Positions 60,001 to 62,297 of a stretch of 62,297 nt of DNA are shown piece after piece. Source of the DNA: Escherichia coli (GTDB lineage: Bacteria; Pseudomonadota; Gammaproteobacteria; Enterobacterales; Enterobacteriaceae); assembly GCF_024298765.1 (NCBI RefSeq), contig NZ_CP101213.1; one strand, 5' to 3'. The position numbers are program-made. The first letter of the stretch is position 1. Each line of letters starts with the position of its first letter.

Positions 60001-62297
60001 CGACTTCATAAGCTGCCTTCGCTGCATCAATGACCTGGACAAAACAAACAGCATCGATAGTTACGTTTGCATTGTCTTTCGAAATAACTTCCTGTTTAGG
60101 AATATCCAGGACGGTTTCCATCATGTTGATCCGTTGACCTATGCGGTCCATAAACGGGATCAGGAAGTGAAGACCGGGGGAAAGCGTATGGGTATATTTA
60201 CCAAAGCGTTCCACTGTCCAGGCATTACCTTGCGGCACGATTTTGACGGCAGATTTAACGAATATCAGCGCGACTAAAATTAATAAGAGTAACGGAATAG
60301 ATGTAACTATTGGCGTAATTATAGCGTCAATCATGATTAATCCTCTCCCCATTCATCACAATATGCTTCAACCGGAGTTTTTCCTGCTTCATAATCACCG
60401 CGCCATGCTTCCGCATCGGCGGCATTTCCACCGCGTAACTCTGCGTAATCCATTAATAGCTCGTGCCATTCTTCAAATGTTACGGTTTGTTTAGTGGAAC
60501 CAAAATCAGCCATATGTATTTCCTGCATTTTGTGGAGGTATCTCTTTGCAAATGAAATCTGAAATATGAACATCAACAGAAAAACACTTTCCTGCTTCTT
60601 TTTCTTTTGAGAAGTTTTTTCTGCATTCTTCAGCGGTCATAGGGAAGTCGCTGTAATGAGTCCATTTCACGGGGCCACCACCTGGTTTTTTGATGGTTGC
60701 GTTTATTTGGTACTTAGGCATTCAAAAATACCTCCACTCGATCACCTGTCTTTCTTGAACACATCCAGCGGCGCAGTTCTGTAAAACTATCCTGGATCTC
60801 ACAACGGGTACTTTTCATTGTGACAGTTGGTATATTGTCGTAGCTGGCATATGCAATCTCTTTTTTGGGTGTGCGCAATATGCCTTTGTCAATATCAAGA
60901 ATCCTGAACGCGCTAATTCTTCTTTTGTGCTCGTTAAATAGTGTTCGTTTAGTTGCTGTTATCTGCTTCTGTGCTTCCTGGTAAATGTAGGTAAGCACAT
61001 CATAAGATTGTTGCTGTGTAATAAGGAAATTACGGCTAACATCCGTTGTTGTGAGCGTTTTATTATTTCTTAATCCCCAATAGGCCACGATGATATAGAG
61101 TGGATATCCTTTCAAATCTGCCACACATTCAGGAATGACAGGATTAATTTTTAACTTACGCGCCATATTTTCTCCCGGTTGTTTGTCTGAAATAGAAACA
61201 TCCCCGGAATACAGCGTCATAAGCTAATTATGAAAAGTTGCAGCCACTCACTACAGGCTCTTTATCTGATTGTTCATCATCATGCATAGCTAAACCCCCT
61301 TACCTGGAGTGGAGACTGGCAAATCTGGTGTACTTCTGCGTTGCAGCCTGTACGACTTGCTCAGGGAGAGAGTGAGTGAGATTAACTCAACGCGAGTTCA
61401 CCAAATAAGGGGGTTTAAGTATGCAGAATGATATTTGCGGATAAAGAGTCGTTACCTGTGTAGATGGCGCGGCACGTCACTCTGTTACGTAGCCCGTTGC
61501 TGACAGATGCCAGCGGTGCTTGAAATGCACGAATAATAACCTCCTTATGCCAGGGCTTTAGGCAATGACCGCTGTCCGGGGTTGTTAAAGAGCATGAGAT
61601 GACAAGCGTTCTAACGGGCGTCAAAGAGTGCTCATTTTCCAGGCAATGAGCACAAAAAACGCGATGAACGAGCTTTTTACAATCATCTGGATAGTATTGT
61701 GTGTGCGACATTTAAAACCTGTCAATGCCACAAGAGCGATCTAATGATCTGGATAACATCTAAAAAACAGAATAATATTCTGTTTGTTAAATGATGTACG
61801 ATCTAAAAATCTAGATAATACTGTTTGTGTGGTTTATTCGATCGTGTGAGTGGGTGTATGCAGTCAAAAAAACTTTTTTGAATATACAAAATTCTGAATT
61901 TCTGATTTTGTAAGGTTTTGTATGGGGAACGTCAGTAAAGAAGGGGCTTCAGTAGCTGTTCTGAAAACGATTTTGAAGCAGTCAGAGATGTGTGCTGAAT
62001 CAAAAAGGAAACGAGCCAGGCTTGAACATCGTTGATCGATTGCGCCCATGCTGCTAAATTTGCAGGCAAGTTTTCCGCGATTTGTAAATGCAGAAAACGA
62101 GGTGCTGAAATTTTGTTCAAGAACGTAAATTTCAGATAAAGAAAACCCCCGTAATCTCGTGTTTTCCAGGCAGCGAAGATTAGCGGGGGCTGACATCAAG
62201 GCAGAGCCTTGAGCTTATTTATTTCAGGTATGCTTGTTACCTGAAATGGAGTTTAATTCCATGAGAAGGAAATATCAACTCTTACAGTGCAAGCTAA

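What the first reader, a model, noticed from the sequence alone, without database searches (positions are those of the whole stretch)
61700..62297. Window edges probably join into one repA control region (leader stem-loop and leader peptide overlapping the repA start)
The last 80 bp contain a perfect stem-loop (ttcaggta-tgcttgt-tacctgaa) and an ATG with RBS at 62261. If position 62297 is contiguous with position 1, that ORF encodes an 18-aa peptide ending at window positions 18-20, overlapping the repA GTG start. An in-frame TAA at 62295-62297 sits immediately before the repA GTG. This is the leader-peptide coupling and antisense-target architecture of IncFII/IncI-type replicons, and it implies the window is close to a full circular plasmid linearised at repA. 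Upstream at 61730-61830 there are atctaaaaa-type repeats.
Basis: inference. Interest (0 to 1): 0.45.

Follow-up and report, generated by a model that had tools for sequence, protein, structure and literature searches.

The report
IncI2 plasmid repA copy-control leader
The two ends of the window join to form the already published replication-control region of an IncI2 (mcr-1-type) plasmid, with a short leader peptide, an antisense RNA and a hairpin-rich leader in front of repA, so the finding is correct but ordinary.

Summary
The window is a complete circular IncI2 plasmid written out from the first possible repA start codon. The end-to-start junction occurs as one uninterrupted 100% identical piece in many circular IncI2 records. 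The window is also collinear end to end with the 62,311-bp plasmid p778.

The 18-aa ORF (ATG 62261 to TAG 18-20) is RepR, the leader peptide studied on pHNSHP45 by Yang et al., NAR 2021 (PMC8053102). They showed that RepA translation is coupled to RepR translation. They also found a roughly 108-nt antisense RNA whose promoter lies inside repR, and a ProQ/FinO protein, PcnR, that binds the hairpin holding the repR start codon. All mutated bases named in that paper are present here, and pcnR lies at 2939-3535.

My additions:
- The flagged hairpin sits directly 5' of the repR ribosome-binding site, and most of it is templated into the 5' end of the antisense RNA. The main antisense target is a different hairpin, 62146-62189.
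- RepR is a shortened homologue of the IncFII leader peptide Tap.
- There is no I-complex pseudoknot.
- Differences among IncI2 lineages cluster in the antisense segment.
- The true repA start may be the second GTG (13-15).

The parts
62033..62061 (+). Probable promoter of the repR-repA leader mRNA (TTGATC, 17 nt, TAAATT); transcript start mapped to about 62066
   Evidence: Read from the sequence. It scores 8 of 12, below the threshold of the scan. The published start, -253, maps to pHNSHP45 position 255, which is window 62066, when +1 is taken as the second GTG (PMC8053102).
62146..62189 (+). Hairpin SL-I, the main antisense-RNA target; its complement is the terminator hairpin of the antisense RNA; apical loop UUUUCCAGG
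   Evidence: Folding: (dG -22.1, z -2.9). Weak Rfam matches lie on the minus strand: rdlD 23.7 bits and CopA 19.4 bits. A compensatory G-C to C-G change occurs at 62161:62171 among IncI2 lineages. The stem sequence resembles CopT of IncFII/FIC relatives.
62196..62212 (+). Hairpin SL-II (TCAAGGC-AGA-GCCTTGA) inside the antisense-complementary segment
   Evidence: The loop base 62203 varies among lineages while the stem is invariant.
62218..62250 (+). The flagged hairpin (core 62223-62245). It lies directly 5' of the repR ribosome-binding site, and its extended stem pairs with UGGA of that site
   Evidence: dG -14.6, z -5.06. The stem is invariant in 8 IncI2 leaders. The loop differs (TGCTTGT against ATCGCTTAC). 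Two 3'-arm changes are A-U to G-U.
62142..62242 (-). Antisense RNA, about 101 nt here and 109 nt in pHNSHP45. It folds as a short 5' hairpin, a middle hairpin and a 3' terminator hairpin followed by a U run
   Evidence: The 5'RACE start and the ~108 nt length come from PMC8053102. Fold: dG -37.4, z -4.53.
62250..62278 (-). Antisense RNA promoter: -35 TTGATA (62278-62273), 17 nt, -10 TAAACT (62255-62250), located inside repR
   Evidence: Promoter scan. The published CA-to-TT mutation that abolishes the antisense RNA is at repR +16/+17, which is 62276-62277, inside this -35 hexamer.
62248..62282 (+). Hairpin with the repR Shine-Dalgarno (GGAG 62248-62251) in its base and the repR AUG in its loop; the published PcnR binding site
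   Evidence: Folds (dG -7.4, z -0.97, so not significant by folding alone). The published mutated bases are all present at the expected positions: GAAA at +9..+12, GA at +5/+6, CA at +16/+17.
62261..62297 (+). repR leader-peptide ORF, first part (continues at window 1-20)
   Evidence: Translational coupling was shown by the T23A stop mutation in PMC8053102. RepR is homologous to Tap.
1..20 (+). repR ORF, last part, ending in TAG at 18-20; it overlaps both candidate repA start codons, GTG 1-3 and GTG 13-15
62281..62297 (+). 5' arm of the hairpin around the repA start (GCAAGCU 62286-62292 pairs with AGCUUGC 4-10). GTG(1-3) lies in the loop and GTG(13-15) in the outer 3' arm
   Evidence: dG -12.5, z -0.48. 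The sequence is invariant in 8 IncI2 leaders except G1A in one. IncFII/FIC relatives carry a hairpin at the same place.
1..1029 (+). repA, replication initiator, 342 codons from GTG(1)
   Evidence: PGAP annotates this same start in relatives. Pfam IncFII_repA scores 25.5 bits against a cut-off of 22.9. It is about 74% identical in amino acids to IncI1/B/O RepZ-type initiators.
1062..1076 (+). Terminator-like hairpin just after the repA stop codon
1333..1341 (-). The only perfect DnaA box (TTATCCACA) in the window, about 300 bp downstream of repA; a probable origin region
   Evidence: One match is within chance, so the origin assignment is an inference from position only.
2939..3535 (+). pcnR, the ProQ/FinO-family copy-number repressor acting on the repR hairpin
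   Evidence: Pfam ProQ, 62.5 bits. [quoted passage not shown] Function is from PMC8053102.

Best explanation
The window is a complete circular IncI2 plasmid written out from the annotated repA start. Its two ends together form the IncI2 copy-number control region.

The parts, in order:
- A leader mRNA starts near 62066.
- It folds into three hairpins: 62146-62189, 62196-62212 and the flagged 62218-62250.
- A fourth hairpin (62248-62282) holds the Shine-Dalgarno sequence and AUG of the 18-codon leader ORF repR.
- repR runs across the junction and stops at 18-20. It passes through a fifth hairpin that encloses the repA start codon.

How it works:
- repA has no ribosome-binding site of its own. 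It is translated only when ribosomes translate repR, open that fifth hairpin and terminate beside the GTG. Coupling is shown experimentally on pHNSHP45.
- A constitutive antisense RNA of about 100 nt is made from a promoter inside repR. It is transcribed from 62242 to about 62142. It is complementary to the three upstream hairpins and represses RepA synthesis (shown).
- It most likely acts as CopA does in plasmid R1. The duplex ends 5 nt from the repR Shine-Dalgarno and blocks ribosome entry (inferred).
- The plasmid's ProQ/FinO protein PcnR (2939-3535) binds the hairpin containing the repR start and represses further, independently of the antisense RNA (shown).

The flagged hairpin is therefore the part of the antisense target nearest the ribosome-binding site. 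Most of it templates the short 5' hairpin of the antisense RNA. It is the positional counterpart of CopT stem-loop I in IncFII plasmids (inferred).
For: Contiguity and identity:
- The junction occurs as one piece at 100% identity in many circular IncI2 plasmids, and PGAP starts repA at window base 1.
- The window is collinear end to end with p778.
- Many deposited IncI2 records begin at this same base.

Match to the experimental system:
- Window 62247..40 is identical to pHNSHP45.
- Every base mutated in PMC8053102 is present at the stated offset from the repR ATG.
- The scanned antisense promoter contains the published -35 mutation site.
- With +1 taken as the second GTG, the published -68, -253, -497 and ~108 nt all become self-consistent.

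Structure:
- The flagged hairpin has z -5.06 and the antisense RNA z -4.53.
- The substitution pattern among 8 IncI2 leaders keeps the local stems. It includes one compensatory pair and two A-U to G-U changes, and 8 of the 14 variable sites in the 186-nt segment are in unpaired positions.

Relation to IncFII:
- RepR aligns with Tap at 10 of 18 identical residues, score 47 against 16 +/- 4.6 for shuffles, 0 of 2000 shuffles as good.
- The SL-I stem and the hairpin around the repA start align with FII/FIC leaders.

Third regulator: pcnR is present.
Against: - Nothing was measured on this particular molecule. Circularity is inferred from relatives, not from reads.
- The published coordinates fit only if the authors numbered from the second GTG. 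I inferred this and could not check their supplementary figure, which is not held.
- The PcnR-bound hairpin and the hairpin around the repA start are not more stable than shuffled sequence (z -0.97 and -0.48). Their reality rests on the published mutagenesis and on conservation.
- How the antisense RNA represses has not been shown for IncI2. Steric block of the repR ribosome-binding site, RNase III cleavage and structural rearrangement all remain possible.
- The role of the flagged hairpin has not been tested directly.
- This window's antisense segment differs from pHNSHP45: an 8-nt shorter leader and about 94% identity over the 307-nt leader query. Quantitative behaviour may therefore differ.
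Confidence: 0.92

Rival explanations
1. I-complex (IncI1/IncB/O/K/Z) type control. The antisense RNA would block a pseudoknot between the SL-I loop and a sequence just upstream of the repA start, and that pseudoknot would be needed to activate RepA translation.
For: RepA is about 74% identical to IncI1/B/O initiators. SL-I begins and ends like IncI1 structure I (GAAAACCCCC...GGGGGC). A natural hybrid, RCS93_pII, carries an IncI2-type RepA body behind an I-complex leader.
Against: - There is no UUGGCG or CGCCAA in the leader.
- The best pairing of the SL-I loop with downstream sequence is -7.6 kcal/mol, no better than shuffles (p 0.54).
- The same test recovers the known pseudoknot site in IncI1 (-16.0, p 0.008) and in the hybrid (-19.3, p 0.004).
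- RepR is not similar to RepY (p 0.09).
- The authors of PMC8053102 also found no such pseudoknot.
Confidence: 0.04
2. Transcriptional attenuation. The flagged hairpin, or SL-II, followed by a T-rich stretch would act as a leader terminator whose formation the antisense RNA controls, as in pT181 or pIP501.
For: The consensus scan lists both hairpins as terminator-like on the + strand.
Against: - The tails are poor U runs (GTTTAATTCC and GCTTATTTAT).
- In pHNSHP45-type leaders a 6-nt insertion moves the T run away from SL-II.
- The antisense RNA pairs with the hairpins themselves and so would dissolve them rather than induce them.
- A stop codon in repR abolishes expression, which points to translational coupling.
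Confidence: 0.03
3. The adjacency of the two ends is an artefact. The contig would be linear, incomplete or misjoined, and the small ORF across the ends would be accidental.
For: No read-level evidence is available for this window. No terminal overlap exists between the ends.
Against: - The exact junction is internal and uninterrupted in many independently assembled circular plasmids.
- The window matches a complete plasmid from first to last base.
- The ORF across the junction is the experimentally studied repR.
Confidence: 0.01

Closest known systems
IncI2 RepR / antisense RNA / PcnR control of repA on pHNSHP45 (Yang et al., Nucleic Acids Res 2021, PMC8053102)
   Same: It is the same element. 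The repR, repR-start hairpin and repA-start region are identical (62247..40). The antisense promoter, terminator hairpin, repA and pcnR are also present.
   Different: This window carries a different allele of the antisense segment, the one found in pD90-2 and p778. It differs at three sites in the SL-I apical pair and bulge. It lacks a 6-nt insertion after SL-II. The flagged hairpin has a 7-nt loop (TGCTTGT) instead of a 9-nt loop (ATCGCTTAC). The predicted antisense RNA is about 101 nt rather than about 109 nt.
IncFII (R1/R100) CopA-CopT-Tap-RepA control
   Same: - A short leader peptide whose reading frame ends just past the repA GTG (GUGAUUAG here, GUGACUGA in the FII relative).
- A hairpin around the repA start.
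- An antisense RNA with a short 5' hairpin and a major 3' hairpin.
- A target hairpin abutting the leader peptide's ribosome-binding site.
- RepR is homologous to Tap, and the SL-I stem resembles CopT.

The mechanism of CopA, blocking tap translation, is from my own knowledge of Blomberg/Wagner/Nordstrom and is cited in PMC8053102.
   Different: - RepR is 7 residues shorter than Tap.
- An extra middle hairpin is present.
- The target loop lacks UUGGCG.
- The Rfam CopA model scores 19.4 bits against a gathering score of 60.
- No copB-like repressor gene lies upstream. The small upstream ORFs have no Pfam hit, and PGAP annotates nothing there.
- A ProQ/FinO protein adds a layer of control that R1 lacks.
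I-complex (IncI1 ColIb-P9, IncB/O, IncK, IncZ) Inc RNA / RepY / RepZ with pseudoknot
   Same: The initiator is closely related (about 74% amino-acid identity). Both systems have a leader peptide overlapping the initiator start, and an antisense RNA whose terminator hairpin is the target hairpin.
   Different: - No pseudoknot and no UUGGCG motif.
- The leader peptide is 18 aa against 29 aa and unrelated in sequence.
- The leader-peptide ATG lies 71 nt after SL-I, with two extra hairpins in between. In IncI1 the gap is about 27 nt by my count of the printed sequence.
- The antisense RNA is about 100 nt with three hairpins. The I-complex RNA is about 70 nt with one (the latter from my own knowledge).

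Membership tests
IncI2 replicon control region (RepR-RepA, antisense RNA, PcnR) | Sequence identity with the experimentally studied pHNSHP45 region and with the prototype R721 | tested here: met
   The leader and repA 5' end align throughout with pHNSHP45 (L008) and R721 (L010). The region 62247..40 is identical. MOB-suite types the identical relatives as IncI2.
IncI2 replicon control region (RepR-RepA, antisense RNA, PcnR) | repR leader ORF with its own Shine-Dalgarno sequence, overlapping the repA start codon | tested here: met
   ATG 62261 to TAG 18-20, with GGAG at 62248-62251. The paper says 19 amino acids. I count 18 sense codons plus the stop.
IncI2 replicon control region (RepR-RepA, antisense RNA, PcnR) | Antisense promoter inside repR (-35 containing CA at repR +16/+17) and an antisense terminator hairpin | tested here: met
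   TTGATA/TAAACT on the minus strand at 62278-62250. CA is at +16/+17. The terminator hairpin plus U run lies at 62189-62142 on the minus strand.
IncI2 replicon control region (RepR-RepA, antisense RNA, PcnR) | pcnR (ProQ/FinO) gene on the same plasmid | tested here: met
   Window 2939-3535, Pfam ProQ 62.5 bits.
IncI2 replicon control region (RepR-RepA, antisense RNA, PcnR) | Translational coupling, antisense repression and PcnR binding actually operate on this molecule | not testable with these tools
   Shown on pHNSHP45 by lacZ fusions, 5'RACE and EMSA, and inferred here from sequence identity.
IncFII CopA/CopT/Tap system | Tap-like leader peptide overlapping the repA start | tested here: met
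   RepR against Tap of p24150-NR: 10 of 18 identical, 0 of 2000 shuffles score as high.
IncFII CopA/CopT/Tap system | Antisense RNA matching the Rfam CopA-like RNA model (RF00042) | tested here: not met
   19.4 bits against a gathering score of 60, E 0.94. It was not listed at all at E up to 1 in the window scan, where the stretch searched was about twice as long.
IncFII CopA/CopT/Tap system | UUGGCG-type target loop | tested here: not met
   No TTGGCG or CGCCAA in the leader. The loop is UUUUCCAGG.
IncFII CopA/CopT/Tap system | copB (RepA2) repressor gene upstream of the leader | tested here: not met
   PGAP annotates no such gene between the CaiF/GrlA gene and repA. Upstream ORFs of 35-111 aa have no Pfam hit. 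The FII/FIC relatives do carry one.
IncFII CopA/CopT/Tap system | Initiator of the IncFII_repA family | tested here: met
   PF02387, 25.5 bits against a cut-off of 22.9, so just above threshold. FII/FIC-typed plasmids carry RepA 70-76% identical to this one.
I-complex Inc RNA / RepY / RepZ system | Pseudoknot between the structure-I loop and a sequence upstream of the initiator start | tested here: not met
   Duplex test: IncI2 -7.6 kcal/mol (p 0.54). Positive controls: IncI1 -16.0 (p 0.008) and hybrid L009 -19.3 (p 0.004).
I-complex Inc RNA / RepY / RepZ system | RepY-like 29-aa leader peptide | tested here: not met
   The RepR against RepY alignment is not better than shuffles (p 0.09).
I-complex Inc RNA / RepY / RepZ system | RepZ-type initiator | tested here: met
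   73-74% amino-acid identity over residues 10-336 or 10-342 to IncI1/B/O plasmids.

The most novel reading that the evidence does not exclude
The antisense-RNA segment (62161-62246), including the loop of the flagged hairpin, may be the fast-evolving specificity determinant of IncI2 replicons. The several leader alleles seen in public IncI2 plasmids would then be distinct copy-control or incompatibility types hidden under the single label 'IncI2'. In that reading the flagged hairpin loop serves as a second recognition loop beside SL-I. Linked to this, IncI2 control would be a derived IncFII-type CopA/Tap module (RepR being a truncated Tap) grafted onto an I-complex-like initiator, and RepA would really start at the second GTG (13-15).
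Probability: 0.35. Interest if true: 0.3.

Novelty: already known. Interest (0 to 1): 0.1.

Why it matters
IncI2 plasmids are the main vehicles of the colistin-resistance gene mcr-1. By collinearity with p778, this window carries mcr-1.1. Their copy number, set by this control region, determines the fitness cost of mcr-1 (PMC8053102).

For the scan, the finding has three practical uses:
- It identifies the window as a whole circular IncI2 plasmid rotated to repA.
- It shows that features at the two edges must be read together.
- It shows that automatic annotation omits repR, the antisense RNA and their hairpins.

The side observations are small refinements, not new biology. They are allelic variation concentrated in the antisense segment, the Tap homology of RepR, and the uncertain repA start codon.

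Tried and rejected
- Rfam on the window end and on the contiguous junction in L001 gave only sub-threshold matches: rdlD 23.7 bits and CopA 19.4 bits. No curated RNA family covers this antisense RNA.
- I searched for intermediate relatives whose leader is 80-90% identical, to use for covariation, and found none. Leader matches in PLSDB stop at about 92%. The next RepA relatives (70-76% amino-acid identity) carry IncFII/FIC or I-complex leaders instead.
- The I-complex pseudoknot was tested with positive controls and rejected.
- Attenuation by terminator-like hairpins was considered and rejected, because the U runs are poor and not conserved.
- A CopB- or RepC-like small regulator upstream was rejected. 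The 37-aa ORF at 61922-62035 has a plausible ribosome-binding site. However, it has no Pfam hit, and all four substitutions among lineages are non-synonymous by my reading of the alignment.
- The minus-strand ORF at 61864-62199, which PGAP annotates as a hypothetical protein in some records, has no Pfam hit and starts inside the antisense RNA. I regard it as spurious.
- I did not run metagenome or genome-collection scans. They would not change the verdict.
- The paper's supplementary figures, which give exact transcript starts and structure drawings, are not held.
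Full report
**1. The observation**

- The perfect hairpin TTCAGGTA-TGCTTGT-TACCTGAA lies at 62223-62245.
- GGAG is at 62248-62251 and an ATG at 62261.
- Joining base 62297 to base 1 gives the ORF MRRKYQLLQCKLSAACCD*, with its stop at 18-20.
- TAA at 62295-62297 lies in the repA frame directly before GTG(1-3).

The hairpin can extend to 13 pairs (62218-62250). It has dG -14.6 kcal/mol and z = -5.06, and no shuffle out of 200 folds as well. A perfect 8-bp hairpin alone is not unusual: the window holds 82, against about 10 in shuffles.

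The upstream repeats exist too. ATCTAAAAA occurs at 61758 and 61801. A more regular trio, AATSATCTRGATA, occurs at 61681, 61743 and 61805, exactly 62 bp apart.

**2. Are the ends contiguous?**

I joined the last 700 and first 700 bases and searched the plasmid collection.
- At least 18 records hold the 1,400 bases as one uninterrupted piece at 100% identity.
- In 288 records one place covers at least 80% of the query.
- The records examined are circular, conjugative and typed IncI2.
- NCBI's PGAP pipeline annotates repA from exactly the GTG that is window base 1.
- Many deposited IncI2 records begin at this same base or end at the base before it. Rotating a plasmid to the repA start is evidently a common post-assembly convention.
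- The window is collinear from first to last base with the complete circular mcr-1 plasmid p778 (NZ_MN746292.1, 62,311 bp): 1-24753 matches 1-24753, and 32551-62297 matches 32565-62311.

The only differences from p778 are a 1,331-bp IS3-family insertion and a rearranged shufflon. The window is therefore a whole IncI2 plasmid linearised at the annotated repA start. Read-level proof for this molecule is not available to me.

**3. What is known about this region**

Yang et al. (Nucleic Acids Res 2021, PMC8053102) dissected this region on the IncI2 plasmid pHNSHP45.
- They named the leader peptide RepR.
- A stop codon at repR +23 abolishes RepA-lacZ expression, which shows translational coupling.
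- 5'RACE detected an antisense RNA of about 108 nt, complementary to the leader.
- A CA-to-TT change at repR +16/+17, in the -35 of its promoter, abolishes that RNA.
- The plasmid's ProQ/FinO protein PcnR binds the hairpin containing the repR start codon. PcnR represses RepA independently of the antisense RNA and keeps the plasmid near one copy.
- They report no IncI1-like pseudoknot.

Window 62247..40 is identical to pHNSHP45. Every mutated base named in the paper is found at the stated offset: CA at +16/+17, GAAA at +9..+12, GA at +5/+6, T at +23. The promoter scan independently finds TTGATA, 17 nt, TAAACT on the minus strand at 62278-62250, which contains the published -35 mutation. pcnR is at 2939-3535 (Pfam ProQ, 62.5 bits).

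**4. Anatomy in window coordinates**

Folding the joined leader gives a row of local hairpins:
- SL-I at 62146-62189. It is G+C-rich with loop UUUUCCAGG. Its complement followed by a U run is the antisense terminator.
- SL-II at 62196-62212.
- The flagged hairpin at 62218-62250.
- The repR-start hairpin at 62248-62282, with the Shine-Dalgarno sequence in its base and the AUG in its loop.
- A hairpin pairing GCAAGCU (62286-62292) with AGCUUGC (4-10). GTG(1-3) is in its loop.

Neither candidate repA GTG has a Shine-Dalgarno sequence in front of it.

The published coordinates (-68 for the antisense start, -253 for the mRNA start, -497 for the fusion boundary, about 108 nt) do not fit if +1 is the PGAP start. 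With that numbering:
- the antisense start falls 20 nt beyond the -10 hexamer;
- the RNA would be 97 nt;
- -253 falls upstream of the only plausible -10 hexamer;
- -497 runs off the GenBank record.

With +1 taken as the second GTG (pHNSHP45 position 508, window 13-15), all four fit:
- the antisense start is 8 nt beyond the -10 hexamer;
- the RNA is 109 nt to the end of the first U4;
- the mRNA start is 5 nt after TAAATT;
- -497 is record position 11.

I therefore place the antisense RNA at 62242 to about 62142 on the minus strand. That makes it about 101 nt in this allele, which lacks 8 nt. I place the mRNA start at about 62066. This mapping is an inference, because the supplementary figure is not held.

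**5. What the flagged hairpin is**

It is not the main antisense target, which is SL-I. It is the hairpin nearest the ribosome-binding site within the antisense-complementary segment. The antisense RNA starts inside the hairpin's 3' arm, so the RNA's first 20 bases are the complement of most of the hairpin. Those bases form a short 5' hairpin. The duplex would end 5 nt before the repR Shine-Dalgarno sequence.

IncFII and FIC-type relatives carry RepA 70-76% identical to this one. They have the same arrangement: the CopT major hairpin, then a second hairpin abutting the Tap Shine-Dalgarno sequence. From established knowledge of plasmid R1 (my own recollection of the Wagner/Nordstrom work, also cited in PMC8053102), CopA represses by blocking tap translation. 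The same mechanism is the most likely one here, but it has not been shown for IncI2.

**6. Relationship to known systems**

RepR aligns with Tap as MRRKYQ-------LLQCKLSAACCD against MLRKLQYPFLCHLLLPCNISAGWCD. The score is 47 against 16 +/- 4.6 for shuffles, and 0 of 2000 shuffles score as high. RepR does not align with IncI1 RepY (p 0.09).

The DNA around the repA start also aligns with FII/FIC leaders. The start annotated there (GUGACUGA, GUGGCUGA) corresponds to the second GTG here (GUGAUUAG). The true IncI2 RepA start may therefore be 13-15, in frame and four codons shorter. One lineage (NZ_KX580716.1) has ATG in place of GTG(1-3), which does not settle the point.

A formal test for the I-complex pseudoknot is negative. 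The best pairing of the SL-I loop with downstream sequence is -7.6 kcal/mol (p 0.54). The same test recovers the known site in IncI1 (-16.0, p 0.008) and in the hybrid plasmid RCS93_pII (-19.3, p 0.004). The Rfam CopA model matches only at 19.4 bits against a gathering score of 60.

The region thus works like the IncFII system and shares ancestry with it. It fails the curated RNA-family threshold, lacks the UUGGCG loop and lacks copB. It is best filed simply as the IncI2 control region.

**7. Variation among IncI2 lineages**

I aligned eight IncI2 leaders: the window, five PLSDB variants, pHNSHP45 and R721.
- The antisense segment 62161-62246 holds 13 substitution sites and 8 indel columns.
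- The 120 nt upstream hold 2 variable sites.
- 62247..40 holds 1.

Within the hairpins the changes are structure-preserving.
- 62161:62171 switches G-C to C-G. This pair is broken in one sequence.
- Two changes in the 3' arm of the flagged hairpin are A-U to G-U.
- Eight of the 14 variable sites in the 186-nt segment analysed fall in loops, bulges or linkers, although about 69% of positions are predicted to be paired.

The flagged hairpin keeps its 8-bp stem while its loop changes from TGCTTGT to ATCGCTTAC. This is the pattern expected if antisense-target specificity diversifies. That would mean distinct control or incompatibility alleles inside IncI2, but the idea is untested.

**8. Verdict**

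Four corrections apply:
- the main antisense target is SL-I, not the flagged hairpin;
- the architecture is IncFII-like rather than IncI1-like;
- PcnR adds a further layer of control;
- the repA start codon is uncertain.

The system is already described in the literature for an essentially identical sequence, so interest is low. The residual novelty lies in the allelic variation of the antisense segment and the Tap ancestry of RepR, both of which are modest.

Noticed in passing
window 61681-61817: Three copies of AATSATCTRGATA lie at 61681, 61743 and 61805, exactly 62 bp apart. Four GATC sites fall in 61738-61840, against a window average of 1 per 399 bp. Two cores read as near-DnaA boxes on the other strand (TTATCCAGA, TTATCTAGA). 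The published -497 fusion boundary (window 61821) excludes the repeats, so they are apparently not needed for regulated repA expression. Function unknown.
   Followed up: partly
window 61765-61785: A palindrome, AAACAGAAT-AAT-ATTCTGTTT, lies here. In pHNSHP45-type lineages (L006, L007) both arms change together: C61768T and G61782A. The perfect inverted repeat is kept. This symmetric double change suggests a functional operator or hairpin. On the minus strand it is followed by a U run.
   Followed up: partly
window 1-15: Two in-frame GTGs (1-3 and 13-15) could start repA. PGAP and the window's rotation use the first. Homology with IncFII/FIC relatives and the coordinate system of PMC8053102 point to the second.
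   Followed up: partly
window 1062-1076 and 1333-1341: A terminator-like hairpin lies right after the repA stop codon. The only perfect DnaA box of the whole window (TTATCCACA, minus strand) lies about 300 bp downstream. This layout recalls the CIS/oriR arrangement of IncFII-type replicons, so the origin is probably here.
   Followed up: partly
window 24754-26084: A 1,331-bp insertion relative to p778, with a 5-bp duplication (24749-24753). It encodes IS3-family OrfA and OrfB (Pfam HTH_Tnp_1, rve) and has the size and duplication length of IS2.
   Followed up: partly
window 18730-20355: By 99.99% collinearity with p778, this stretch is mcr-1.1 (colistin resistance), followed by the PAP2 gene. 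I did not translate it separately.
   Followed up: no
window 30657-32574: Shufflon region next to pilV. The segments are rearranged, inverted and about 1.35 kb shorter than in p778.
   Followed up: no
L009 (NZ_LT985310.1, plasmid RCS93_pII) 450-800: A natural hybrid replicon. Its RepA is 95% identical to IncI2 RepA from residue 10 onward. Its N-terminus and whole leader are I-complex type, with a UUGGCA loop, a 29+ aa leader peptide and the pseudoknot partner GCCA. MOB-suite still types it as IncI2.
   Followed up: partly
window 61864-62199 (minus strand): A 111-aa ORF antisense to the repA promoter and leader. PGAP annotates it as a hypothetical protein in some IncI2 records (WP_015057135.1, WP_171265264.1). 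It has no Pfam hit and starts inside the antisense RNA upstream of that RNA's terminator, so it is probably a spurious call.
   Followed up: partly
window 2667-2789 and 3553-4576: Between repA and the partition genes lie a Hok/Gef-family toxin gene, pcnR, a small gene on the minus strand (the CopG-like orf00050 of PMC8053102; no Pfam hit here) and a ParA/MipZ-like ATPase gene.
   Followed up: no
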